Source: Arachnia sp.
Lineage (GTDB): Bacteria > Actinomycetota > Actinomycetes > Propionibacteriales > Propionibacteriaceae
Direction: 5' to 3'
NCBI GenBank assembly: GCA_039929445.1
Contig: JBDSRF010000195.1
Location: 9,682-33,681 of the forward strand
DNA: 24,000 nucleotides
The notes below the pieces were generated by a model. It did no database searches, was not told the origin of the DNA, and saw nothing but the letters and a program-made list of their open reading frames with translations. Of this stretch, positions 3 to 9,273 are shown in pieces (position 1 is the first letter of the stretch; every line of letters begins with the position of its first letter). The translations under genes and the position numbers were made by a program.

Positions 3-491
3 GACGGCGGGTTCGAGTGGTCGATCTCCGCAGTGGCCTCCATCGCCACCACCCTTCTGGCAGCACGATGCCGGATCGCCATCGTCTCGGCGGAGTCCGA
101 GATCTACACCACCCTCCACACGGACGCGCTCGCCGCACGGGAAACGATGATGGGAGCCATGGTGGACCTGCCCAACTCCGACCGCCCGACCCTGAGCAGC
201 GGATTGTCGGACTCCGACTCCATGGGCACCTCGCAGTCCATCATGGCCGCCCTCGGTTTCCTGGAGGCCGCCGACGCGTCCGCCCTGACCGCCGTCGGGG
301 GCAGGATGCAGCAGGCGTCCGCCCTCGTGCCGGACGCCGTGGCGTGGGGGGTCTCCCCCGCCCGCGCTGATGCGCATCGCGCCGCCTGCCGCCTCCTCAC
401 CTCTTCGGGGTGGACAGTGAACGAGTACGGACCCGGGGAGCGGGTCGTGGACGCGTGGGACAAGCTGATGGCCCGGGTGGAGGCGACATGA
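3..491 (+). CDS. C-terminal part of a hypothetical protein, 5'-truncated by the window edge; DUF58-like by context
   Basis: Frame 3 is open from position 3 to TGA 489-491. The track ORF 33..491 only marks the first in-frame GTG. The stop overlaps the next gene's ATG (ATGA at 488-491). The 'FEWSISAVASIATTLL...' segment and the position directly upstream of a TgpA-type transglutaminase fit the usual MoxR/DUF58/TgpA order. The family call is contextual only. Confidence 0.5.
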   Translation, partial: DGGFEWSISAVASIATTLLAARCRIAIVSAESEIYTTLHTDALAARETMMGAMVDLPNSDRPTLSSGLSDSDSMGTSQSIMAALGFLEAADASALTAVGGRMQQASALVPDAVAWGVSPARADAHRAACRLLTSSGWTVNEYGPGERVVDAWDKLMARVEAT

Positions 492-2647
492 GGTTCCAGC
501 AGAACGCCCTGAGTTCCATCGCCATCGCCGTCGCCGTCTGGCTGGCCGCGTGGACGCTGCGCCCCATGTTCATCGACACCGTCTTCCTCACCTGGGTGCC
601 AGTGCTCGTCGGTATCGCCGCCGTGGTGGGGACCCTCGGCGTCCTTCTGCGGTTTCCCCGCGCCGTCACGCTGGCAGTGCAGGCGCTCGGCATGGTGGCG
701 CTGCTGCTGTGGCTCGGATTCCGGGACGCACCGCGAAGTGATGACCCGGACGCCTCCTGGTACGAACCGCTGGTGATGCTGGGCGCCCTCGGCACCAAGG
801 CCGTGCGGGAGAGCAGCACCCCGCTGCCCACCGACCCGGGGCTGGTGTGGCTGCTGTTGTGCATCCTGGCGTTGGTGGTGCTCGCCATGGAGACCCTTGT
901 CAACGTGCTGGAACAGCCGGCCTGGTCCCTTGCTCCGCTGGGGGTGGTCTACGGCGTCGGCGCCCTGACCCTGTCCAACGAGATGGAGTGGACCTCGTTC
1001 GTGGCCGTGGCAGTGGGCTACGCGCTGGTACTGGCGACCAGCACACAACTGGTCGGCGCAGGCCGCGGACGCTCCGGTCATCAGGCCACCCGTGCCGCCG
1101 TCGTGCTGGTGACGCTGGTGGTCGCGTCGGTTCTGGCGCCCCTGCTGACGAGCTTTGTCCCGCTGGGAGAGAAGCAGCCGTGGCTGCAGGCCGGCCGGAA
1201 CAAACCCATCACGCTGACCGACCCCACGGTGGCACTCAACGAGAACCTGCGCCGACCAGCCGATGAGGTGGTGCTCCGCTACACCACCGACTCCGAATTT
1301 CCCCTCTACATGCGCACGGTGGCGCTGACCCGGCTGACCACCGACGGTGCTGCGCTCACGGGGATGCGCCTGTCGACGACGGGCCTGAGTGGCGCCTACA
1401 CCGCGCCCGGTGTGCCGGTGGACGCCACGGTGCGCATGCTGGTGCCGTCGGAGTACCTGCCCGTGCCGTTCGCCGTTGACCGGTTCTCCGCCGCCGGCGC
1501 CTGGGCTCACGATCGCAACACCATGAGCATTGTGGCCACCGGCGGGGCCCGCACCGAGCAGACACAGGGGCTGGAGTACGAGGTGTCCTCCACCATCCCC
1601 ATGCCCGAGCGCGCCGATCTGGAGGCCGCCGCGGCAGGGGTCGACCCTGCTGGCGCGGACACACTCGCCGTGCCCGATGGCCTGGACCCCCAGGTGCAGA
1701 CGCTCACCGACTCCGTGACGGCACAGGCCACCACGGCGGGCGAGAAGGCTCTGGCCATCCAGAGCTACCTGCGCTCGGGCCTGTTCAACTACAGCCTCAA
1801 CGCACCGGAGGAGGCAGGCACCGACGTCATCAGCAACTTCCTCCTCACCAACCACTCCGGCTACTGCATCCACTTCGCCGCCGGCATGATCACCATGGCC
1901 CGCATGGAGGGGATCCCCGCCCGGATGGCGATCGGGTTCACCCCCGGCAAGAAGGACGGCGACGAATGGGTCGTCACCACCCACAACATGCACTCCTGGC
2001 CCGAGCTGTACTTCGAGGGGCTGGGGTGGGTGCCGTTCGAGCCCACCAAGTCGGTGGCGGCGCCGCCTCGCTACACCGACGCCGACGAGGCCCCCAACGC
2101 ATCCCCGTCCCCGTCCCCCAGCCCGAGCACGACGACCGCACCCAGCGCATCGCCGAGCGCCCCGGAGCCGGAGCCCACCGTTGCCCCGACGCCTCCCGCA
2201 CAGGATCCCGACACCTCGAACCCGGCCGGCTGGTTCCTGCTCCTGGGCGTGCTCGTCGTACTCGCCGCGCCGCTGACCGCCCGCAGCGCTGTGCGCACGT
2301 GGCGGCTGCGCGCCGGCCAGGGACCGGCCGCTGCGGCCGACTCGGCCTGGCGTGAGGTGGCGGCACTGTTCAGGGACACCGGGCTGGAGTTCAGCGAGGC
2401 ATCCCCCGTGCTGGCGGCCCAGGAACTGGGCAAACATCTGGACCCGTCCGCGGCTGCCGAGCTGACGTCCGTGGCGGGCACGGTGCAGCGGGCACGCTAT
2501 GCCCGCGACGGCGCCGATACGTCCGACCTGCCCTCCCACGTCCGTGGTTTCCGGCGTGCCCTGCTCCGCACACAGCCGGGGAATCTGCAGACGAGGGCGC
2601 TACTTCTGCCCCTCTCACTGGTGCCTGTGAGCAGACGTCCGGACTAA
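488..2647 (+). CDS. TgpA-type transglutaminase-like membrane protein (N-terminal multi-TM region, transglutaminase core, DUF4129-like tail)
   Basis: ATG 488 is preferred over the track start 410 because of a GGTGGAGG SD just upstream and ATGA coupling to the previous stop. It has several N-terminal hydrophobic helices. Core motifs are 'HSGYCIHFAAGMITMAR', 'HNMHSWPELYF' and 'GWVPFEPT'. A Pro/Ser/Thr linker ('SPSPSPSPSTTTAPSASPSAPEPEP') is followed by a TM helix ('WFLLLGVLVVLAAPL') and a C-terminal '...TVQRARYARDG' region. Confidence 0.85.
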   Translation: MRFQQNALSSIAIAVAVWLAAWTLRPMFIDTVFLTWVPVLVGIAAVVGTLGVLLRFPRAVTLAVQALGMVALLLWLGFRDAPRSDDPDASWYEPLVMLGALGTKAVRESSTPLPTDPGLVWLLLCILALVVLAMETLVNVLEQPAWSLAPLGVVYGVGALTLSNEMEWTSFVAVAVGYALVLATSTQLVGAGRGRSGHQATRAAVVLVTLVVASVLAPLLTSFVPLGEKQPWLQAGRNKPITLTDPTVALNENLRRPADEVVLRYTTDSEFPLYMRTVALTRLTTDGAALTGMRLSTTGLSGAYTAPGVPVDATVRMLVPSEYLPVPFAVDRFSAAGAWAHDRNTMSIVATGGARTEQTQGLEYEVSSTIPMPERADLEAAAAGVDPAGADTLAVPDGLDPQVQTLTDSVTAQATTAGEKALAIQSYLRSGLFNYSLNAPEEAGTDVISNFLLTNHSGYCIHFAAGMITMARMEGIPARMAIGFTPGKKDGDEWVVTTHNMHSWPELYFEGLGWVPFEPTKSVAAPPRYTDADEAPNASPSPSPSPSTTTAPSASPSAPEPEPTVAPTPPAQDPDTSNPAGWFLLLGVLVVLAAPLTARSAVRTWRLRAGQGPAAAADSAWREVAALFRDTGLEFSEASPVLAAQELGKHLDPSAAAELTSVAGTVQRARYARDGADTSDLPSHVRGFRRALLRTQPGNLQTRALLLPLSLVPVSRRPD

Positions 2648-2716
2648 AGCTTTCGTGGGGGCCCAGGCGGACATACAATCGACAACATCAGCCGAATCGA
2701 GGCGAGGGAGATCGGT

Positions 2717-3106
2717 ATGGCTCTATCAGAGCAGGAGCGCAAGCTGTTGGAACAGCTTGAGGCGTCCCTTATGGCCGAAGACCCCAAATTCGCCCAGACG
2801 CTGAGCGGGGCCGGAAGCATCCGCGTCCACCGTCGACGCGCCACGTTGGCGGGTGTGGGGTTTGTTCTCGGTCTTCTGTTGCTCATCGGCGGGGTGCAGA
2901 TCAACCCTGCCGTCAGCATCGCTGGGTTCGTGGTCATGTTGGCCGCCGCCATCATCGGGGTGAATTCGTGGCAACGGGTCAGTGGTGAGGGCCAGCCGGC
3001 GGGGCGCCCCTCCGATCAGCCACCGTCCCCCAAGCCCACCAGCCAGGACTTCATGGAGAAGCTCGAGGAGCGCTGGCGCAAGCGTCAGGAGGGCGGCGAC
3101 CTCTGA
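2717..3106 (+). CDS. DUF3040 domain-containing membrane protein
   Basis: The N-terminus 'MALSEQERKLLEQLEASLMAEDPKFA' is the remembered DUF3040 signature. It is followed by two hydrophobic helices and a Pro-rich tail. GGGAG lies 6-7 nt upstream of the ATG. Confidence 0.8.
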   Translation: MALSEQERKLLEQLEASLMAEDPKFAQTLSGAGSIRVHRRRATLAGVGFVLGLLLLIGGVQINPAVSIAGFVVMLAAAIIGVNSWQRVSGEGQPAGRPSDQPPSPKPTSQDFMEKLEERWRKRQEGGDL

Positions 3107-3128: not shown

Positions 3129-4313
3129 TCATCCCACGGGGGTTTTCGTCTCGCGTCGTGTCAATCGTGCGCGCTGCACAGCCATCGGACCGAACCGCAT
3201 CACCACCTGATCCACGGCACGCTCCGCCTGCTCCCATCCGCAACGCGGCTCGTCCAGGGTCGGCTGCGTGTAGGTGTCGTCCTTCGACGCCAACTTCTCC
3301 ACCCGTACCCCCACCCGCCGGATCCGGGCCCGGGACAGGTGCAGCTTGTGCCACAACCGCATGGCCTCCGCGTGGATGTCCCCCGTCAGGTCCGTGGGCG
3401 CCTTCAGCGTGCCGGTGCGGGTGATCGTGGTGAAGTCAGAGAACCGCACGGACAGCGTCACCACCCTGCCCACCATGGACTGCGCACGCATCCGGGATGC
3501 TGTCCGCGCCGCCATCCGCAGGATCTCGGTGGCCACCACCTCCTCGTCGTCGGTGTCGCGCCCAAAGGTCTCCTGGGAGCCGATGCTCCGCTCGGCGGGC
3601 TCGCGCGCCAGCACGGACCGGTCGTCCTGCCCCCACGCCAGGTCGAACAGCAGCCCGCCCTGCCCCTCACCCAGTGCACGCTGCAGCGTGGCGCGGGGTG
3701 TGTTGGCGATGTCGCGGACCGTCATGAGCCCGAGCCGGCGCAACTTCTCGGCCGTGACCTCCCCCACCCCCCATATGGCGTCGACGGGCAGCGGATGCAG
3801 GAAGGAGATGACGTCGTCGGGGTGCACCACCTTCAGGCCGTCGGGCTTGGCTGCCTTGGATGCGAGTTTGGCGATGAATTTGCTGGGGCCGATGCCCACC
3901 GAGCAGGCGATGCCCTGCTCGTCCATCACCTGCGCCCGGACGTCCTCCGCGACGGCGGCGGCATCCCCGCCCAGCCTGCGCAGGGCGCTGGTGAGGTCGA
4001 TGAAGGCCTCGTCGATGGAGGCCATCTCCACCCGGTCGGTGATGGTGTCGAATACCTCCTCCACCGCAGTGGACACCTCCGCGTAGTGGTCGAAGTCCGG
4101 GTGCACCACCGCCACCTGCGGGCACAGCCGCCTGGCCCGGGTGGACGGCATGCCGGCCGTGATGCCGTAGACCCGGGCAGGGTAGTTGGCGGACAGCACC
4201 ACCCCCCGGGCAGAGCCGCCCACGAACATGGGGACATGTGCCAGCGAGGGTTCGCGGGCCATTTCCACGGACGCGTAGAACGCATCCATGTCCACGTGCA
4301 GGATCGTCTTCAT
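3129..4313 (-). CDS. dinB: DNA polymerase IV (Y-family, catalytic residues intact)
   Basis: Start trimmed to ATG at 4313-4311 ('MKTILHVDMDAFYASVE'), preceded by GGAAGGAG. Y-family motifs 'DMDAFYASVE', 'SIDEAFIDLT' and 'CSVGIGPSKFIAKLAS' are present. It lies 14 nt downstream of the dnaE2 stop on the same strand. Confidence 0.9.
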   Translation of the reverse strand: MKTILHVDMDAFYASVEMAREPSLAHVPMFVGGSARGVVLSANYPARVYGITAGMPSTRARRLCPQVAVVHPDFDHYAEVSTAVEEVFDTITDRVEMASIDEAFIDLTSALRRLGGDAAAVAEDVRAQVMDEQGIACSVGIGPSKFIAKLASKAAKPDGLKVVHPDDVISFLHPLPVDAIWGVGEVTAEKLRRLGLMTVRDIANTPRATLQRALGEGQGGLLFDLAWGQDDRSVLAREPAERSIGSQETFGRDTDDEEVVATEILRMAARTASRMRAQSMVGRVVTLSVRFSDFTTITRTGTLKAPTDLTGDIHAEAMRLWHKLHLSRARIRRVGVRVEKLASKDDTYTQPTLDEPRCGWEQAERAVDQVVMRFGPMAVQRARLTRRETKTPVG

Positions 4314-4327
4314 GGGGTGTCTCCTTC

Positions 4328-7300
4328 CTACCTTCCTGAGCTTCCGGGGCTGGAGTGCCACAGTTTCCGCGGCGCCTCCGCGGCGCCTGTCCCCGATGGT
4401 TTGATGTCGGCGTAGGGCGACTGCTCGAACCCACTGGCGTGCACGATCACCCGCCGTCGACCCATGCCGCCGGCGCGGGTGTGGTCCTGCGGGTCCGGGG
4501 GCGGCTCGAATCCCTCGGGCACGGGTTCCGCCGTCGTTGCCTCCGCCTCACCCTGGCGGTCGGCGGACCTGGCGTCGCGTCGCTCCTGCTCACCCTTGCT
4601 CCCCCCATCGTCGGGCGTCGTCCTGAGCTTGTCGAAGGGAATCCACTCACCGACCGGTCCGAAGCCGATGGGCTCGGCGTCGACGATCTCCCGCACCGCG
4701 GCCAGCGCCTCCTCGCCGGTGGCGCCCACATCCAGTGCCCCCCGCCACGCGTCGTGCAGCAGACCGAGATCCCAGGCCCCCGTGGCCCGGATGGACAGGC
4801 CACGCGGACCGGTGCGCCGGATGACACCGCGCACCATCAGCATCCAGCTGTTGAACACCGTCGACGCGTAACCGCCCTGCGCATCCTCGAAGAACGTGGC
4901 GTCGGTGGGGCCCGTGGAGTCGTCGAGCGTGAGGAACACCACGCGACGGCCCGAACGCACCGGCGGTGTCTGCGTGGCCACCTTCACCCCGCAGATGAAC
5001 ACCTCGGAGCGGTTGCGCTGCTGCATGAGGCGCTGCGAACTGGTGGCGCCGAAGGCCCGCAGGAATGGCAGGTAGCGCTCCATGATGTGCTGGCTGGCGT
5101 CCAGGCCCAGGATCTCCAGCTCGGAGCGCAGCCGCTGGTCGTCGTCCATCTCCGGCAGCCCCGTGGCCACCACGTCGGAGGTCTCGTCGCCGTCCTGGAA
5201 GTCGAACGCCCCCTGCACCGCCTGCCCCGTGGGGACGCGGGTCCTGCGGCTCTGGGCGCGGGCCAGCGTTCCCGGGTCCTCCGTGCCCTGGAGTGCCATG
5301 GGCCGGCGGCCACCGCTGCGGGACCGGGCGCGGTCGTCGTAGCGGCGCATGCGGTGCAGATCCGCCGACGCCAGCAGCAGGTCGCGGCGGGTCACCTGGT
5401 CGCGGCGGGCGACGGCTGCGTGGCGACCGATCCCGTAGAGCCGGTCGAAGGCGCCGGCCAGGACGAGCCGCTCCACCACGGGGTGCTCCACCGCGGCGCG
5501 TGACCAGAAGTCGCTGAGCGTCGCGTAGGGCTGACCGGCGACGATACGCCCGATCTCGGCCTCGCTCATGCCCTTCACGTCCGCCAGGGACAGCCGGATG
5601 CCCCACCCGGAGATGGTGGGCAGGCCGTTGACAGCCACCGGCAGTCCGGCCTGCGTCACATCGGTGATGGTGTCGGTTGCGGTGGGCTTCCCCACCCCCG
5701 CAACCTGCGGACTCCCCCCGCCCGGCGGTCCCGTGTCGGTGCAGTCCCCGGGGGTCCGCCACGCCGGCGGCAGGGCGGTGGCGTCCAGGTCCAGGGCCTC
5801 CTCGTCCCCGTCGATCCGCTCCACGTGGTAAGCGCCGTCGCTGTGGTTGACGTCCAGCCCCAACACCTGGATGCCCATGCGGCGGGCCTCCTCCAGCAGC
5901 AGCCGTTTGGGGTACATGCCCGGGTCGTGGGTGAGGATCCCGGAGATGAAGTGGGCCGGGTAGTGCCGCTTCAGCCACGCCGACTGGTAGGTGGGCAGCG
6001 CGAACGCGGCGGCGTGAGCCTTGCAGAACCCGAAGGACGCGAAGGCAACGAGGATGTGCCACAACTGCTCGATGACTGCCTCGGTGTACCCCCGTTCGCG
6101 GGCGCGCGGCCACAGCCACTGCCGGACCTCCTCCTGGCCCTCCTTGTCGCCCAGTGCGCGGCGCACCTCGTCGCCCTGGGCCAGGGAGCAGCCGGTGGCG
6201 ATGGAGATCAGCATGATGACCTGCTCGTGGAACACCACCACCCCGCCGGTCTGCTGGAGTGCCGGGATGAAGCTCGCGTGCAGGTACTCGGGTTTCCGCC
6301 AGCCCTGCCGGGCCTCCAGGAAGGGGGTCACCATGTCCGACTTCACGGGGCCGGGGCGGAACAGGGAGATGTCGATGATGATGTCGTGGAAGGTCTCGGG
6401 CCCGAACTTGCCCACCAGTTCCCGCTGCCCCGGCGACTCGATCTGGAAGCAGCCGAGCGTGGCGCGGTGGGCGATCATGTCGTAGGTGGCCGGGTCGTCG
6501 AACGGCGCCAGCGCGTCGATGTCGGGGGTGGGTCCCGGGGGCTGGGTGCGCCCGATCTCGGCCAGGGCGTGGGCCATCGACGACTGCATGCGGATACCCA
6601 GCACGTCCAGCTTCAGGAAGCCGAGATCCTCGACGTCGTCCTTGTCGAACTGGCTCATGGGGAACCCGCCATGGCTGGCCTCCACGGGGGTGCGCTGCCC
6701 CAGGGAGGAGTCGCTGAGCAGTACGCCGCAGGGGTGCAGCGCGATGTGGCGGGGCAGGCCGTCGAGGGATTCCACCAGGGTGAACAGCACCTCCAGCCGC
6801 TGCTCCCCCAGACCGGCGGCCCGCAGCTCCGGCAGGTCGCGGAGCGCCGCCTTCGCGTCCCGCGCCCGGACGTGCGGGAATGCCTTGGCCATGGCGTCCA
6901 CCTCAGCGGGCGGCAGGCTGAGGGCCGCACCCACGTCGCGGACGGCGTGGCGCACCCGGTAGGTCTCCAGCATGGCCACGCACGAGACGCGCTGGCCGCC
7001 GAAGGTCTCCAGGATCTTCTCGTAGATCTCGGTGCGGCGGTGGGACTCCACGTCCAGGTCGATGTCCGGCAGCGCCTGCCGCAGCGGGGAGAGGAACCTC
7101 TCCATGAGCAGGCCATGCGCCATGGGGTCGACGCCGGAGACGCCGAGCGCGTAGTTGACGAGGCTGCCCGCGCCGGAGCCGCGGGCGGCGCAGCGGATGC
7201 CGAGGTCGCGGATGAGCTGGACCACGTCGCCCACCGTCAGGAAGTAGGACTCGAACCCCAGCTTCCCGATGACGGCCAACTCGTCCTCGAGGCGGTCCGA

Positions 7301-8326
7301 GACGCCACGTCCCATCGTGGGGAACCGAGCAGCCAGACCGGCCTCGCAGCGGGCGCGGAGCACCCCCGGCGCCTGCGCGGTGGTGGTGCCGAGCGTCTCG
7401 AACTCCGGCAGGCGGATCTCTCCCAGCCCGATGTCGGCGACGGGGTCCAGGCGGCACTCCAGCGCCAACTCCCGGGTACGGCGGAGCAGCGCGTCGGGGT
7501 CCTCACCCGCCAGCAGCGCGGCCTCCTGCGCGGCGAAGGCCATGGCGGTGGCCGGCTTGAGGTGGCCCTCGGCGTTGCGGCGGTCAATGTTGCGCAGATC
7601 GAGTGGGACCAGGCGCCGGGTGGCGTCGAGGACGTCGATGGTGGCCGCCTGCTCCCTGCGCGCCATCCTCACCATGTTGGTGAGCACGGAGCGCACACCC
7701 GTCTCCGAGGCGAGCCGCAGGATGCCCGCAGCGTGGTGCGCGGAGGTGGCACCCCTGCCCCCGACGTGATGGTTGGTGGCCGCCAGCACCACCTGACCAC
7801 CCAACCCGTCGCGCCACGTGGCCAGCCGCCTGTGTGCCTCGTCGAAGCGGTTGTCTGCCAGCAGGTTGCCGACGTCGGAGTCGGCACCCAGCGTCACCAC
7901 CACGTCCCGGCCGGCGCAGTGCCGGACCACCAACTCCTGGGTGACCACAGGGTCCCCGCGCTCCCCGCTGAGGTGGGCGGCGGTGATGAGGGTGCACAGC
8001 GTGGCCCACCCGGCCCTCGAGGTGGCCGTCACCACCAGGCGCGGCAGGCGGAGGTCGCGCAGTTGCCCGCCCTTGGCCGCCGTCGGACGGCGAGTCTGTG
8101 ACCTGCCGTCACCGACGGCCAGATCCACCCCGACGATGGGTGCGATCCCCGCCTTCAGGCAGGCCTTGGCGAACCGCACCGCCCCGTACAGCCCGTTGCG
8201 GTCCGTCAGTGCCAGGGTGTCCATGCCGAAACCCGCCGCCGCGGCCACCAGTGCGCTGGGGTGGGAGGCGCCGTACTGGAAGGAGTACCCCGACGCCACC
8301 CGCAGGTGGCTGAACTGCTCCGTCAC
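4328..8326 (-). CDS. dnaE2: Error-prone DNA polymerase III alpha-type (DnaE2-like), unusually long at 1332 aa
   Basis: GTG start at 8326-8324 overlaps the upstream gene's stop (GTGA). Pol IIIalpha palm motifs are 'LPDIDLDVESHRR' and 'FLKLDVLGIRM'. Finger region is 'FGFCKAHAAAFALPTYQSAWLK'. HhH region is 'GIRLSLADVKGMSEAEIGRIV'. OB-fold region is 'VFICGVKVATQTPPVRSGRRVVFLTLDDSTG'. The C-terminus reads '...VIVHASGFEQSPYADIKP...PRKLWHSSPGSSGR'. Confidence 0.9.
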   Translation of the reverse strand: MTEQFSHLRVASGYSFQYGASHPSALVAAAAGFGMDTLALTDRNGLYGAVRFAKACLKAGIAPIVGVDLAVGDGRSQTRRPTAAKGGQLRDLRLPRLVVTATSRAGWATLCTLITAAHLSGERGDPVVTQELVVRHCAGRDVVVTLGADSDVGNLLADNRFDEAHRRLATWRDGLGGQVVLAATNHHVGGRGATSAHHAAGILRLASETGVRSVLTNMVRMARREQAATIDVLDATRRLVPLDLRNIDRRNAEGHLKPATAMAFAAQEAALLAGEDPDALLRRTRELALECRLDPVADIGLGEIRLPEFETLGTTTAQAPGVLRARCEAGLAARFPTMGRGVSDRLEDELAVIGKLGFESYFLTVGDVVQLIRDLGIRCAARGSGAGSLVNYALGVSGVDPMAHGLLMERFLSPLRQALPDIDLDVESHRRTEIYEKILETFGGQRVSCVAMLETYRVRHAVRDVGAALSLPPAEVDAMAKAFPHVRARDAKAALRDLPELRAAGLGEQRLEVLFTLVESLDGLPRHIALHPCGVLLSDSSLGQRTPVEASHGGFPMSQFDKDDVEDLGFLKLDVLGIRMQSSMAHALAEIGRTQPPGPTPDIDALAPFDDPATYDMIAHRATLGCFQIESPGQRELVGKFGPETFHDIIIDISLFRPGPVKSDMVTPFLEARQGWRKPEYLHASFIPALQQTGGVVVFHEQVIMLISIATGCSLAQGDEVRRALGDKEGQEEVRQWLWPRARERGYTEAVIEQLWHILVAFASFGFCKAHAAAFALPTYQSAWLKRHYPAHFISGILTHDPGMYPKRLLLEEARRMGIQVLGLDVNHSDGAYHVERIDGDEEALDLDATALPPAWRTPGDCTDTGPPGGGSPQVAGVGKPTATDTITDVTQAGLPVAVNGLPTISGWGIRLSLADVKGMSEAEIGRIVAGQPYATLSDFWSRAAVEHPVVERLVLAGAFDRLYGIGRHAAVARRDQVTRRDLLLASADLHRMRRYDDRARSRSGGRRPMALQGTEDPGTLARAQSRRTRVPTGQAVQGAFDFQDGDETSDVVATGLPEMDDDQRLRSELEILGLDASQHIMERYLPFLRAFGATSSQRLMQQRNRSEVFICGVKVATQTPPVRSGRRVVFLTLDDSTGPTDATFFEDAQGGYASTVFNSWMLMVRGVIRRTGPRGLSIRATGAWDLGLLHDAWRGALDVGATGEEALAAVREIVDAEPIGFGPVGEWIPFDKLRTTPDDGGSKGEQERRDARSADRQGEAEATTAEPVPEGFEPPPDPQDHTRAGGMGRRRVIVHASGFEQSPYADIKPSGTGAAEAPRKLWHSSPGSSGR

Positions 8327-8694
8327 GACACCACGCCCTCGAAACGCATCCGGCGGGTGACGTCGGTGACGAAACGCTCCAGGTCGCGCACCAGGTCGTC
8401 GGCCTCACGCTCGCCGACGATGGCCCGCTCCCCCGCGGCCACCACCTTCACCCGCATGGAGAGGTATCCGAAGAAGGCGGCCCATTCGGCCAGGTGGGGC
8501 GCCCGCCGCGCCAGCAGGTCCCAGACGTCATGGCGGCCGCGCACCCGCCCCGGCGTGCCGGCGATGACGGCCAGCGCCAGTTGCTCGGCGGCGCTGTGGG
8601 CTGCCACGTAGCGGTCGGCCGGGTGTTCGATGCAGCCGATGTCCGCCAGTTCCTGGGCATCCAGGGGGCGCATGGCCCGTGTGGTGTCGGCCAT
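8323..8694 (-). CDS. Small all-helical protein, HEPN-like (resembles the 'SAV_6107 family HEPN domain' annotation class)
   Basis: Only the last 123 aa of the 305-aa track ORF are kept, starting at ATG 8694-8692 ('MADTTRAMRPLDAQELADIG...'). The start shares one nt with the upstream stop (TGATG). The stop overlaps the dnaE2 GTG. Signature-like stretch: 'PADRYVAAHSAAEQLALAVIA...APHLAEWAAFF...READDLVRDLERFV'. Family assignment is from memory, not a search. Confidence 0.65.
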   Translation of the reverse strand: MADTTRAMRPLDAQELADIGCIEHPADRYVAAHSAAEQLALAVIAGTPGRVRGRHDVWDLLARRAPHLAEWAAFFGYLSMRVKVVAAGERAIVGEREADDLVRDLERFVTDVTRRMRFEGVVS

Positions 8695-9023
8695 CAGTCG
8701 CACACCGCCTGGAGCACCCAGTCGTCGCGCCCCACGGAGCGAGCCAGTTCGTAGACGCCGCGCTGCATGCCGTTGCCGGCCTCGACGCGCCACACCTCCA
8801 TCTCCTCCAGCAGGTCCGCCGCAGGGGCCGGCGTGGCCCCGGTGGCCGTGCCGGTGGTGGCCGCATCCCCGCGGGCCGCTGAGACCCGGGGCGACTCCCA
8901 CCATGCCGTCGACCTGCTCCACCGTCCCTGGACCTCCTTGACCAGCAGCAACCGGTTGCGCCAGATGAACTGCTGGGGACGGTCGCTGAACAGGACGCAA
9001 ATGGGTTCGTCGTAACTGCGCAT
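8694..9023 (-). CDS. Small protein resembling the DUF6504 family
   Basis: Start chosen at ATG 9023-9021 ('MRSYDEPICVLFSDRPQQFIWRNRLLLVKEVQGRWSRSTAWW...EMEVWRVEAGNG...GVYELAR...WVLQAVCD'), with GGAAGG 4 nt upstream. An alternative in-frame ATG exists at 9098. The motifs W-R-x-R, 'WW', 'VWRVEA' and 'GVYEL' match my memory of DUF6504. Confidence 0.6.
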   Translation of the reverse strand: MRSYDEPICVLFSDRPQQFIWRNRLLLVKEVQGRWSRSTAWWESPRVSAARGDAATTGTATGATPAPAADLLEEMEVWRVEAGNGMQRGVYELARSVGRDDWVLQAVCD

Positions 9024-9080
9024 GGGGGCCTTCCGGGTTCGTTGCCATTCGTGAGAACTGCGTTCGACCCAACGCTCGTT

Positions 9081-9101
9081 CCGATGCTCCAGGAGCATCG
9101 G
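9081..9101. promoter_or_regulatory. Perfect 21-bp palindrome CCGATGCTCC-A-GGAGCATCGG (candidate operator)
   Basis: Read directly: the 10-bp arms are exact reverse complements around a single central A. It lies 58-78 nt upstream of the DUF6504-like start. A 1-nt spacer is too short for an RNA loop, so a dimeric DNA-binding site is more likely. Confidence 0.4.
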
Positions 9102-9120
9102 GACGAAGTCCCCGGAGGAG

Positions 9121-9167
9121 GCTTTGGGCCCCGGCGCAGGGGTCGAGGCCACGCCGGGGCCCAAAGC
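9121..9167. other. Perfect inverted repeat: 16-bp GC-rich stem with 15-nt loop, in the leader or intergenic region
   Basis: GCTTTGGGCCCCGGCG (9121-9136) and CGCCGGGGCCCAAAGC (9152-9167) are exact reverse complements, separated by CAGGGGTCGAGGCCA. It sits between the LexA box and candidate promoter and the first gene of the cassette. No T-tract follows on either strand. Confidence 0.6.
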
Positions 9168-9216
9168 GGCCCTCCGTGCATCGGCGGTGGTTCGAAGCCT
9201 CTTCCCAGGGCCTCAT

Positions 9217-9232
9217 TCGAACAACCGTTCGA
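9217..9232. promoter_or_regulatory. LexA (SOS) box, TCGAAC-AACC-GTTCGA
   Basis: Exact match to the actinobacterial/mycobacterial LexA consensus TCGAAC-N4-GTTCGA. It lies in the 332-bp divergent region upstream of the DUF6504/HEPN/dnaE2/dinB cassette. Confidence 0.75.
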
Positions 9233-9242
9233 TACGACAACC

Positions 9243-9273
9243 ACTATAAGCCCGGCCCCTGACAGTCCGTCAA
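9243..9273 (-). promoter_or_regulatory. Candidate sigma-70-type promoter for the SOS cassette (-35 TTGACG, -10 TATAGT)
   Basis: The minus strand reads TTGACG (9273-9268), a 19-nt spacer, then TATAGT (9248-9243). The LexA box begins 10 nt downstream of the -10. The spacer is longer than optimal and the implied leader is about 210 nt, so this is tentative. Confidence 0.3.

What the first reader, a model, noticed from the sequence alone, without database searches (positions are those of the whole stretch)
3129..9273. SOS-boxed, translationally coupled DUF6504-like / HEPN-like / DnaE2-like / DinB cassette with no ImuA'/ImuB
Seen in sequence:
- Four same-strand genes are packed with coupling signals.
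- The DUF6504-like stop and the HEPN-like ATG share one nt (TGATG, 8692-8696).
- The HEPN-like stop overlaps the dnaE2 GTG (GTGA, 8323-8326).
- The dnaE2 stop and the dinB ATG are 14 nt apart, and that gap contains GGAAGGAG.
- A perfect LexA box lies upstream.

Established knowledge: in mycobacteria, DnaE2-dependent damage-induced mutagenesis needs the accessory proteins ImuA' and ImuB, and ImuB is a catalytically dead Y-family protein.

In this window the polymerase is instead preceded by two small uncharacterised proteins and followed by a catalytically intact Y-family polymerase.

Inference: the two small proteins may be dedicated accessory or regulatory subunits of an alternative, poorly described translesion 'mutasome'.
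Basis: partly seen in the sequence, partly recalled or inferred. Interest (0 to 1): 0.8.

Follow-up and report, generated by a model that had tools for sequence, protein, structure and literature searches.

The report
SOS-controlled split-ImuB error-prone polymerase operon

Summary
On the minus strand a perfect LexA box precedes four tightly coupled genes: DUF6504, HEPN_SAV_6107, a DnaE-type polymerase and a catalytically intact DinB.

- DUF6504 is the published standalone ImuB-C domain. The homologue in Tessaracoccus lapidicaptus is listed as "ImuB-C" in the DnaE2B-PolY-ImuB-C-RecA system of NAR 2026. The window's proteins are 67%, 73% and 80% identical to that exemplar.
- So ImuB is split, not absent, and the alternative mutasome is already described.
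- In related loci ImuB-C is present or absent together with DnaE2B, although the two genes flank HEPN.

The HEPN gene appears in none of the mutasome papers read.
- It sits between ImuB-C and DnaE2B in about 75% of such cassettes.
- It is absent from T. lapidicaptus.
- It persists behind a LexA box where the polymerases are gone.
- This makes it a frequent SOS-linked member, not an obligate subunit.

A further part emerged: a leader RNA hairpin at 9167-9121 with a conserved CCUCGACCC loop.
- All 17 stem pairs show compensatory changes across 57 distinct sequences.
- It has no Rfam match.
- It tracks polymerase-containing operons.

Overall this is a known system with two new leads.

The parts
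9243..9273 (-). Promoter-like element: TTGACG (9273-9268), 19-nt spacer, TATAGT (9248-9243), directly upstream of the LexA box
   Evidence: Read from the sequence. It is invariant in close relatives (alignment A3). The same TTGACG-N19-TAnnnT layout is seen in distant loci L087 and L013. The consensus scanner missed it because it allows only 16-18-nt spacers. The transcription start was not mapped, so this is an inference.
9217..9232 (-). LexA (SOS) box TCGAACggttGTTCGA
   Evidence: It is a unique perfect match in the window, with 0.06 expected by chance. A box with up to one mismatch lies within 600 nt upstream of the first operon gene in 76 of 83 related loci. Only 24 other matches occur in 1.4 Mb.
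9121..9167 (-). Leader RNA hairpin: a stem of about 17-19 bp and a loop CCUCGACCC (about 9148-9140)
   Evidence: The leader fold has z = -5.5. In 57 distinct homologous hairpins, 17 of 17 stem pairs show compensatory changes. They are 91.6% paired, with a covariation score of 0.90 against 0.24 for shuffles and at most 0.23 for slid controls. Model R1 scores the window copy at 54.9 bits, E 6e-8. Across 1.49 Mb every hit with E <= 0.05 lies at the same leader position. No Rfam family matches.
9064..9070 (-). GGGUCGA box, complementary to the hairpin loop UCGACCC
   Evidence: The box is present within 70 nt downstream of the hairpin in 37 of 98 non-redundant loci, against 2.1 expected (P about 6e-36). 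It occurs in 0 of 98 upstream controls. Its function is unknown.
8694..9023 (-). imuB-C: standalone ImuB C-terminal domain protein (Pfam DUF6504), 109 aa
   Evidence: Pfam E 2.5e-12. It is 67% identical to P0039, which equals VEP41449, published as ImuB-C. My HMM hits published ImuB-C proteins ACZ39476 and ADJ25744. The AF2 model is all-beta, pLDDT 75.7, with no PDB fold match. Across loci it is present or absent together with DnaE2B: 41-43 loci have both, 31 have neither, and 4 rearranged loci have only DUF6504.
8323..8694 (-). HEPN_SAV_6107 family protein, 123 aa; its start overlaps the imuB-C stop and its stop overlaps the dnaE start
   Evidence: Pfam E 2.2e-19. There are 18 invariant residues across homologues of 31-86% identity. 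The AF2 model has pLDDT 89 and is a helical bundle. Only weak HEPN-like fold matches were found. It is present in 51 of 68 ImuB-C-anchored loci. At least 538 species genomes encode a relative. A profile search found 1185 clusters at 50% identity, all single-domain.
4328..8326 (-). dnaE2B: error-prone-type C-family DNA polymerase, 1332 aa
   Evidence: Domains were assigned. NCBIfam scores for error-prone polymerase (628 bits) and Pol III alpha (620 bits) both fall below their cut-offs. It is 73% identical over its full length to T. lapidicaptus DnaE2B VEP41450. The catalytic PDIDLD and KLDVLG motifs are intact. The C-terminal motifs RRRV(I/L)VHASGFxQSPYADIKPxG and RKLWHSSPGSSGR are conserved.
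3129..4313 (-). dinB / PolY-core: active-type Y-family polymerase with a C-terminal RecA-NT-like motif, 394 aa
   Evidence: Pfam and NCBIfam assignments are. It is 80% identical to the T. lapidicaptus PolY-core VEP41451. The catalytic DMD and SIDEA motifs are intact. The C-terminus GWEQAERAVDQVVMRFGPMAVQRARL is conserved across loci.

Best explanation
The window, from a Propionibacteriaceae genome of the Arachnia/Tessaracoccus group, carries a LexA-repressed operon: imuB-C, hepn, dnaE2B, dinB. It encodes the DnaE2B-PolY-ImuB-C-RecA type of error-prone translesion polymerase complex.

Proposed course of events:
1. After DNA damage, LexA leaves the box just downstream of a TTGACG-N19-TATAGT promoter.
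2. One mRNA is made, and overlapping stop and start codons couple translation of the four genes.
3. ImuB-C, a small beta-barrel, binds the PHP domain of DnaE2B. The Y-family polymerase contacts DnaE2B and binds RecA through its C-terminal RecA-N-terminus-like motif. RecA thus takes the place of ImuA. This step comes from published AF3 models of orthologues.
4. Together, PolY and ImuB-C do the job of ImuB as two separate proteins. Unlike ImuB, the PolY here keeps its catalytic residues.

The HEPN_SAV_6107 protein lacks the canonical Rx4-6H site at the usual position. It is most likely an SOS-induced auxiliary factor that is common in this operon but is not a core subunit.

The 5' leader carries a conserved RNA hairpin. 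It probably adds a post-transcriptional control layer on the polymerase genes, through attenuation, mRNA stability or factor binding.

Shown here: gene content, motifs, cross-species linkage, SOS-box conservation and hairpin covariation.
Inferred: complex architecture (from the literature), co-transcription, damage induction, and the roles of HEPN and the hairpin.
For: Identity with the published system:
- The DUF6504 homologue P0039 is sequence-identical to ImuB-C VEP41449 of the T. lapidicaptus 'DnaE2B-PolY-ImuBC-RecA system'.
- The window proteins are 67%, 73% and 80% identical to that trio.

Conservation across genomes:
- 35-36 of 63 fully flanked HEPN-anchored loci have the full gene set.
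- ImuB-C and DnaE2B are gained or lost together although they flank HEPN.
- The gap between the HEPN stop and the DnaE start is mostly -10 to +34 nt.
- A LexA box is present in 76 of 83 loci.
- Catalytic and RecA-NT motifs are conserved.

Experimental precedent:
- The S. venezuelae dnaE2-dinP operon is bound by LexA and induced 30-fold and 14-fold by mitomycin C (PMC9380542).
- The Geobacter lexA-imuB-C-polY operon is damage-induced and transcribed as one unit (cited in PMC6511836).

Leader hairpin.
Against: - Nothing here was tested experimentally in this organism. Co-transcription, SOS induction and complex formation are all inferred.
- Whether the genome lacks imuA'/imuB cannot be checked from a 24-kb window.
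- Pfam DUF6504 does not hit a proteobacterial ImuB C-terminus even at E <= 10. The link to ImuB proper therefore rests on published profile searches and on my weak HMM hits to standalone ImuB-C proteins.
- The beta-clamp motifs I point to (QPTLDE in DinB, QGAFDF in DnaE2B) are weak and untested.
- HEPN's place in the model is open.
Confidence: 0.8

Rival explanations
1. One reading: HEPN_SAV_6107 is a dedicated structural or regulatory subunit of this mutasome, for example a small subunit that modulates PolY or DnaE2B in the way UmuD', YolD or YhjD do.
For: - The gene always sits between imuB-C and dnaE2B when present, with stop/start overlaps on both sides.
- It is present in 51 of 68 ImuB-C-anchored cassettes.
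- In 14 loci that lack DnaE2B it directly precedes DinB.
- It shares the SOS box.
- It has 18 invariant residues, which indicates strong selection.
Against: - It is absent from 14 of 68 cassettes, including T. lapidicaptus, where imuB-C abuts dnaE2B.
- It persists in 9 fully flanked loci that have no polymerase.
- No ImuB-C or polymerase fusions occur among 1185 family clusters.
- A confident AF3 tetramer was published without it.
Confidence: 0.25
2. HEPN_SAV_6107 is an independent SOS-regulon effector, for example a nucleic-acid- or nucleotide-binding factor acting on RNA or on growth. It merely shares an ancestral SOS promoter and chromosomal slot (MTHFR ... DUF3040-TgpA-DUF58-MoxR-mraZ) with the polymerase genes.
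For: - HEPN-only loci keep the LexA box in 7 of 8 cases.
- The synteny holds with or without polymerases.
- The family is widespread: at least 538 species and 1185 clusters.
- The canonical HEPN motif position carries R96-x6-R103, both invariant. This fits binding rather than RNase chemistry.
Against: - The tight translational coupling to dnaE2B in most loci and the constant position inside the cassette are more than shared-promoter economy would require.
- No function can be named.
Confidence: 0.45
3. This is a canonical ImuA'-ImuB-DnaE2 system whose accessory genes lie elsewhere in the genome, as in M. tuberculosis. On this reading the two small genes are unrelated passengers.
For: - Split arrangements of imuA'-imuB and dnaE2 are known in mycobacteria (established knowledge; PMC3765255).
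- Only 24 kb of this genome can be seen.
Against: - The polymerase is a 73% orthologue of a DnaE2B. That group is reported only in genomes without imuA or imuB.
- It scores below the NCBIfam error-prone (DnaE2) cut-off, 628 against 939 bits.
- ImuB-C is present or absent together with it.
- The DinB carries the RecA-NT motif that substitutes for ImuA binding.
Confidence: 0.05
4. The HEPN gene marks a toxin-antitoxin or anti-phage defence module inserted in a repair operon.
For: Many HEPN families are RNase toxins or defence effectors (PMC3710099).
Against: - No PADLOC model matches the HEPN, DUF6504 or DinB proteins.
- There is no adjacent MNT or antitoxin gene.
- There is no Rx4-6H at the canonical position. 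PMC3710099 also lists this family as lacking the motif.
- The chromosomal position is fixed across orders, unlike mobile defence genes.
Confidence: 0.02

Closest known systems
DnaE2B-PolY-ImuB-C-RecA putative mutasome (fourth DnaE2B group; exemplars Tessaracoccus lapidicaptus and Janibacter indicus; NAR 2026, PMC12926913; precursor analysis in NAR 2019, PMC6511836)
   Same: - The three core proteins are the same, at 67%, 73% and 80% identity to the T. lapidicaptus trio.
- The order imuB-C ... dnaE2B, dinB is the same.
- The PolY is active and carries a RecA-NT motif.
- The flanks are the same (DUF3040-TgpA).
   Different: - The window has an extra HEPN_SAV_6107 gene between imuB-C and dnaE2B. 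That gene is absent in T. lapidicaptus and is not mentioned in the papers.
- The conserved leader RNA hairpin and the SOS-box statistics are also not described there.
Canonical ImuA(ImuA')-ImuB-DnaE2 mutasome (M. tuberculosis, Pseudomonas, Caulobacter)
   Same: - It is SOS-controlled.
- A DnaE2-type polymerase works with a Y-family scaffold, an ImuB-C beta-barrel and a RecA-like partner.
- The likely outcome is damage-induced mutagenesis.
   Different: - There is no ImuA. RecA is predicted to take its place.
- The Y-family protein is catalytically intact, and ImuB-C is a separate polypeptide.
- The polymerase belongs to the DnaE2B clade, not DnaE2A. Its C-terminal tail motifs differ: RKLWHSSPGSSGR against ...SRDF(R/C).
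Streptomyces DnaE2B-iPolY(scDinB2)-RecA system (dnaE2-dinB2/dinP operon)
   Same: - dnaE2B and a Y-family gene are adjacent.
- LexA control and strong mitomycin C induction were shown in S. venezuelae.
- The closest plasmid-borne relatives of the window's polymerase are Streptomyces dnaE genes, at about 45% identity.
   Different: - The Streptomyces PolY is reported inactive and no ImuB-C is present.
- In the one Streptomyces locus examined (S. gamaensis, L046), the HEPN_SAV_6107 homologue sits at the DUF3040-TgpA locus with no polymerase gene next to it.
HEPN superfamily, HEPN-M (SAV_6107) family (Anantharaman et al. 2013, PMC3710099; Pfam PF18726)
   Same: - The Pfam match is E 2e-19.
- The AF2 model is a helical bundle.
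- There is weak structural similarity to HEPN proteins (YutE, HepS, HepT; TM 0.4-0.5).
   Different: - There is no Rx4-6H at the start of the last helix. Invariant R96-x6-R103 lies there instead.
- An R28-x4-H33 pair lies in the first long helix.
- There is no MNT partner.
- The 2013 survey gave no gene context for this family.

Membership tests
DnaE2B-PolY-ImuB-C-RecA system | DnaE2B-clade C-family polymerase with an intact polymerase active site | tested here: met
   It is 73% identical over its full length to the exemplar VEP41450. PDIDLD and KLDVLG are intact, and the family C-terminal motifs are present.
DnaE2B-PolY-ImuB-C-RecA system | Standalone ImuB-C family protein encoded with the polymerase | tested here: met
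   It is 67% identical to P0039, which equals the published ImuB-C VEP41449. My HMM hits ImuB-C proteins ACZ39476 (E 3e-8) and ADJ25744 (E 2e-6) in a 3-sequence test. The model is all-beta with no PDB fold match, which agrees with the published 'novel beta-barrel'.
DnaE2B-PolY-ImuB-C-RecA system | Apparently active Y-family polymerase carrying a RecA-NT-like motif | tested here: met
   DMD, SIDEA and KPDG are intact. The C-terminus AERAVDQVVMRFGPMAVQRARL resembles the RecA N-terminus ALEAALAQIEKAHGKGSVMRL quoted. The motif is conserved in all related loci. The protein is 80% identical to PolY-core VEP41451.
DnaE2B-PolY-ImuB-C-RecA system | Genome lacks imuA and imuB | not testable with these tools
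   Only 24 kb of the genome is available. None is found in the window.
DnaE2B-PolY-ImuB-C-RecA system | Physical complex with RecA | not testable with these tools
An AF3 tetramer is published for the T. lapidicaptus orthologues.
Canonical ImuA-ImuB-DnaE2 mutasome | ImuB: a catalytically dead Y-family protein fused to ImuB-C | tested here: not met
   The Y-family protein keeps its catalytic residues and ends after the RecA-NT motif. ImuB-C is a separate gene two positions upstream.
Canonical ImuA-ImuB-DnaE2 mutasome | ImuA/ImuA' (RecA/SulA-like) gene | tested here: inconclusive
   None is in the window. The rest of the genome is unseen.
Canonical ImuA-ImuB-DnaE2 mutasome | DnaE2 (DnaE2A) polymerase | tested here: not met
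   The NCBIfam error-prone polymerase model gives 628 bits against a cut-off of 939. The C-terminal tail differs from the DnaE2A type.
SOS (LexA) regulon member | LexA operator at the promoter | tested here: met
   A perfect TCGAAC-N4-GTTCGA lies 10 nt downstream of TATAGT. It is conserved in 76 of 83 loci.
SOS (LexA) regulon member | Induction by DNA damage / LexA binding | not testable with these tools
   This was shown only for the related S. venezuelae dnaE2-dinP operon.
HEPN superfamily (catalytic RNase type) | Rx4-6H motif at the N-terminus of the last core helix | tested here: not met
   That position has invariant R96-EADDLV-R103 and no His. PMC3710099 also lists 'No' for this family.
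HEPN superfamily (fold) | Four-helix up-down HEPN bundle | tested here: inconclusive
HEPN-MNT toxin-antitoxin / defence systems | Adjacent MNT nucleotidyltransferase or a defence-system profile match | tested here: not met
   The neighbours are imuB-C and dnaE2B. PADLOC gives no hit.
Known RNA families (Rfam 15) | Leader hairpin matches a curated covariance model | tested here: not met
   There is no hit at gathering score in the window. Only generic hairpin hits far below threshold appear in two leaders.

The most novel reading that the evidence does not exclude
Mutagenic polymerase expression in many Actinomycetota is gated twice. The first gate is LexA. The second is a previously undescribed 5'-UTR RNA element: a long covarying hairpin with an invariant UCGACCC loop core, often followed by a loop-complementary GGGUCGA box. 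This element would act as an attenuator, stability switch or factor-binding switch.

On this reading the co-encoded SOS-induced HEPN_SAV_6107 protein, which belongs to an RNA-binding/RNase superfamily, is a new trans-acting or polymerase-associated regulator of this pathway.
Probability: 0.3. Interest if true: 0.75.

Novelty: new variant of a known kind. Interest (0 to 1): 0.55.

Why it matters
[quoted passage not shown] The split-ImuB version here is already in the literature, so the cassette itself adds only another member.

What is new is that the commonest natural form of this operon carries two further conserved parts:
- an SOS-boxed HEPN-fold gene, found in at least 538 species genomes;
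- a covarying leader RNA hairpin specific to the polymerase-containing operons.

Both give concrete handles for experiments: gene deletions, loop and stem mutants, and multimer modelling. These could show how cells restrain or license error-prone synthesis beyond LexA. That question is still open even for the well-studied mycobacterial system.

Tried and rejected
- Sequence searches of solved structures with the DUF6504 and HEPN profiles found nothing meaningful.
- Foldseek of the DUF6504 model against the PDB found no match with E < 1. The same search for the HEPN model gave only weak HEPN-like matches.
- Pfam DUF6504 does not detect the C-terminus of a bona fide proteobacterial ImuB (Cupriavidus pENH92) at E <= 10. 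My HMM aligned only the 'WW' there. The ImuB link therefore rests on the published assignment and on hits to standalone ImuB-C proteins.
- I looked for Rosetta-stone fusions of HEPN with ImuB-C or other domains among 1185 family clusters. The ten longest proteins contain only PF18726.
- A defence or toxin reading of HEPN was rejected.
- Streptomyces plasmid dnaE relatives (45% identity) have no ImuB-C, HEPN or DinB next to them, so they do not inform this cassette.
- I considered the hairpin as an intrinsic terminator. No U-tract follows it in any clade, so at best it would be a non-canonical terminator.
- I considered an H-type pseudoknot between the loop and the GGGUCGA box. The linker is mostly 4-19 nt, which seems too short to span a 16-19-bp stem. 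The pairing is more likely an alternative structure or serves another purpose. This is unresolved.
- The consensus promoter scan found nothing because the spacer is 19 nt.
- No paper in the library contains both 'HEPN' and 'DnaE2', and none contains 'DUF6504'.

Full report
**1. The observation**

- The DUF6504 gene (ATG 9023, stop 8696-8694) shares one base with the HEPN ATG (TGATG).
- The HEPN stop overlaps the polymerase GTG (GTGA, 8326-8323).
- The polymerase stop (TAG 4330-4328) is followed after 14 nt, containing GAAGGAG, by the dinB ATG (4313).
- A perfect TCGAAC-N4-GTTCGA box lies at 9232-9217. It is the only match in the window, with 0.06 expected by chance.

Pfam confirms DUF6504 (E 2.5e-12) and HEPN_SAV_6107 (E 2.2e-19). 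It also confirms a PHP/Pol III alpha/finger/HhH/OB polymerase of 1332 aa and an IMS-family DinB of 394 aa. NCBIfam scores the polymerase about equally as error-prone polymerase and as Pol III alpha, both below their cut-offs. DinB keeps its catalytic residues (HVDMDAFYASVE, SIDEAF). The rest of the window holds ordinary genes and no imuA'/imuB: TgpA, DUF3040, CoaBC, a beta-lactamase-fold protein, GDPD, an aquaporin-type (MIP family) channel and an acyl-CoA dehydrogenase.

**2. What the two small proteins are**

All 95 significant Pfam-annotated relatives of the DUF6504 protein are short standalone proteins from Propionibacteriaceae and similar metagenomes.
- The best hits are an Arachnia sp. 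MAG (100%) and Tessaracoccus antarcticus (94%).
- T. lapidicaptus is 67% identical (P0039).

The literature settles the identity.
- Aravind et al. 2013 defined the ImuB-C domain. It occurs fused to ImuB or as a standalone protein in operons with DinB and DnaE2.
- Timinskas and Venclovas (2019, 2026) described DnaE2B polymerases in genomes without imuA or imuB. One group combines DnaE2B, an apparently active PolY, standalone ImuB-C and RecA, with T. lapidicaptus as exemplar.
- Supplementary file 5 of the 2026 paper prints that exemplar's ImuB-C, VEP41449. Its sequence is identical to P0039.

The window's polymerase and DinB are 73% and 80% identical to the exemplar's DnaE2B and PolY-core. An HMM of the DUF6504 relatives also hits published ImuB-C proteins from other phyla, at E 3e-8 and 2e-6 in a three-sequence test. 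My AF2 model is all-beta with no PDB fold match. [quoted passage not shown] So ImuB is not absent. It is split into an active PolY and a free ImuB-C.

**3. Linkage statistics**

A scan of one genome per species with a HEPN alignment found at least 538 genomes with a relative. The best 80 loci were fetched. I used tblastn with the window proteins and a DUF6504 HMM. The fully flanked loci divide as follows:
- 35 (+1) have ImuB-C, HEPN, DnaE2B and DinB.
- 14 have HEPN and DinB only.
- 9 have HEPN alone.
- A few are rearranged.

ImuB-C upstream and DnaE2B downstream of HEPN are present or absent together: 41-43 loci have both, 31 have neither, and 4 rearranged loci have only DUF6504. This fits the published model in which ImuB-C binds the DnaE2 PHP domain.

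The whole block occupies a fixed chromosomal slot next to DUF3040-TgpA(-DUF58-MoxR-mraZ). Most loci carry a methyltransferase between dnaE2B and dinB. The window lacks it.

A LexA box with up to one mismatch lies upstream of the first gene in 76 of 83 loci. Only 24 other matches occur in 1.4 Mb. Several of those lie between HEPN and DinB in loci without DnaE2B.

The DinB proteins at this locus keep their catalytic motifs almost everywhere. They also keep a C-terminal GW-x-AE-x-A-x-D-x4-RFG-x2-AV motif, the RecA-NT-like motif of the literature, preceded by a Q(L/P)xL clamp-motif-like stretch. The DnaE2B proteins keep PDIDxD and KLDVLG and two conserved C-terminal tail motifs.

**4. The HEPN gene**

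None of the mutasome papers mentions HEPN. No paper in the library holds both 'HEPN' and 'DnaE2'. The 2013 HEPN survey lists the SAV_6107 family only as actinobacterial, without the Rx4-6H motif and without gene context.

In an ImuB-C-anchored sample (80 metagenome loci plus T. lapidicaptus), the informative loci divide as follows:
- 51 have HEPN between ImuB-C and DnaE2B.
- 14 have the two directly adjacent.
- 3 differ in other ways.

T. lapidicaptus itself lacks HEPN, which explains why the exemplar did not reveal it. In the Janibacter row of the supplement, the accession numbers skip one gene between ImuB-C and DnaE2B and one between DnaE2B and PolY.

Features of the protein:
- It has 18 invariant residues across homologues of 31-86% identity. 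These include DRYxxAH in the first long helix, EWAAFF, and READDLxR at the start of the last helix.
- The position where catalytic HEPNs carry Rx4-6H has R96-x6-R103.
- The AF2 model is a confident helical bundle with pLDDT 89.
- Structural matches to HEPN proteins are weak.
- The family comprises 1185 clusters at 50% identity, all single-domain with no fusions.
- PADLOC finds nothing.

HEPN is thus a strongly selected, SOS-box-linked gene. It usually rides inside this cassette and is tightly coupled to dnaE2B, with gaps mostly -10 to +34 nt. It is dispensable in some lineages and survives without any polymerase in others. I rate 'auxiliary SOS factor, not a core subunit' above 'dedicated subunit'.

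**5. An unexpected part: a leader RNA hairpin**

The 190-nt stretch between the LexA box and the imuB-C start folds much better than shuffles (z = -5.5). It contains a 19-bp GC hairpin that is almost invariant in close relatives.

In distant loci the leader holds a hairpin with different stem sequences but the same loop core UCGACCC. I made a gapless alignment of 57 distinct hairpins, anchored only on that heptamer. Its pair counts are as follows:
- 91.6% of stem positions are paired.
- 17 of 17 pairs show changes on both sides.
- The covariation score is 0.90. Shuffles give 0.24 (0 of 500 reach the observed value), and slid registers give at most 0.23.
- Many pairs are G-U, which points to RNA of the operon strand.

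One caveat applies: the sequences were picked for having a stem.

A covariance model gives 61 hits with E <= 0.05 in 1.49 Mb. All lie at the leader position on the operon strand, one per locus. It also hits 50 of 80 ImuB-C-anchored metagenome loci. Rfam 15 has no such family.

The hairpin is present in these fractions of loci:
- 33 of 38 full cassettes;
- 11 of 14 HEPN+DinB loci;
- 1 of 8 HEPN-only loci;
- T. lapidicaptus, which has no HEPN gene.

So it follows the polymerase genes, not HEPN.

A loop-complementary GGGUCGA box lies within 70 nt downstream in 37 of 98 non-redundant loci, against 2.1 expected. It is usually too close for a simple pseudoknot.

The promoter TTGACG-N19-TA...T just upstream of the LexA box is shared by distant loci. 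This places the hairpin in the 5' UTR.

**6. Verdict**

The cassette is a member of an already published kind of mutasome. It is unproven for HEPN.

The new content is twofold:
- the HEPN-containing form is the majority form of this operon;
- a covarying leader RNA element accompanies the polymerase genes.

Both are leads, not demonstrated functions.

Noticed in passing
window 9121-9167 (-); also L002-L171 leaders, e.g. L087:9362-9408, L044:9248-9294: A conserved 5'-leader RNA hairpin lies between the LexA box and the first operon gene. It has a stem of up to 19 bp with compensatory changes at all 17 modelled pairs and an invariant loop core UCGACCC. It has no Rfam match and is found only at this position in 1.5 Mb of related DNA. 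It tracks operons that contain polymerase genes.
   Followed up: yes
window 9064-9070 (-); e.g. L044 7 nt and L097 4 nt after the hairpin: A GGGUCGA(G) box complementary to the hairpin loop lies shortly downstream in 37 of 98 non-redundant loci, against 2.1 expected. The short linker argues against a simple pseudoknot, so this may be an alternative pairing or have some other role.
   Followed up: partly
L004, L014, L026, L039, L040, L047, L062, L063, L142, L150, L154, L169 leaders (between the first hairpin and the first gene): In Mycobacteriales-, Frankiales- and Kineosporiaceae-type leaders, a second hairpin with loop GUGGGGAAGC is followed by a complementary CUUCCCC stretch. This suggests a second module built on loop-to-downstream pairing. 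The window's clade lacks it.
   Followed up: no
L016, L019, L022-L025, L038 (about +395 to +417 from the HEPN match start): In loci with HEPN and DinB but no DnaE2B, a second perfect LexA box sits between the HEPN stop and the DinB start. There the two genes have separate SOS operators.
   Followed up: partly
L004:12286-13050, L007:7517-8299 and about 25 other loci; absent in window 4314-4327: Most related cassettes carry a SAM-methyltransferase (Methyltransf_11/25) gene between dnaE2B and dinB. It also follows HEPN in polymerase-less loci. The window and its closest relatives lack it.
   Followed up: partly
window 410-3106 (+) and flanks of nearly all loci: The cassette occupies a fixed syntenic slot next to DUF3040 and the transglutaminase TgpA. 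In other genomes this continues as DUF58-MoxR-mraZ, upstream of the cell-division cluster.
   Followed up: partly
L091:8001-13324 (T. lapidicaptus) and L097, L099, L100, L102, L105, L107, L109, L110, L115, L118, L123, L127, L136: These are natural HEPN-less versions of the cassette, with imuB-C abutting dnaE2B. They could serve as natural controls for HEPN function.
   Followed up: yes
window 5620-5815 (-), about residues 838-902 of the polymerase: The polymerase has a low-complexity insertion of about 40 aa (ALDLDATALPPAWRTPGDCTDTGPPGGGSPQVAG...) relative to the T. lapidicaptus orthologue, just before the HhH region. A further acidic/basic insertion lies before the C-terminal tail.
   Followed up: no
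L090:5201-9639 (Nonomuraea gerenzanensis record filed as 'plasmid I', 11.85 Mb): Here ImuB-C is directly followed by a DnaE2B-like gene (45% identity), preceded by a GAAC-N4-GTTC-type box. No HEPN, DinB or hairpin is present, so it resembles the published 'DnaE2B-ImuB-C only' group. The record is evidently a chromosome filed in a plasmid database.
   Followed up: partly
L037:6301-8712 and L070:12489-15149: In these two loci (Acidothermus and Stackebrandtia MAGs), a DnaE2A-type polymerase (31-34% identity, C-terminus ...SRDFR) lies a few kb from the HEPN gene rather than a DnaE2B.
   Followed up: no
window 8323-9240 (-) and 8694-9164 (-): The mechanical ORF list shows a 305-aa ORF spanning both small genes in one frame and a 156-aa N-terminally extended DUF6504 ORF. 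Both are high-GC read-through artefacts. Homologues fix the real starts at 9023 and 8694.
   Followed up: yes
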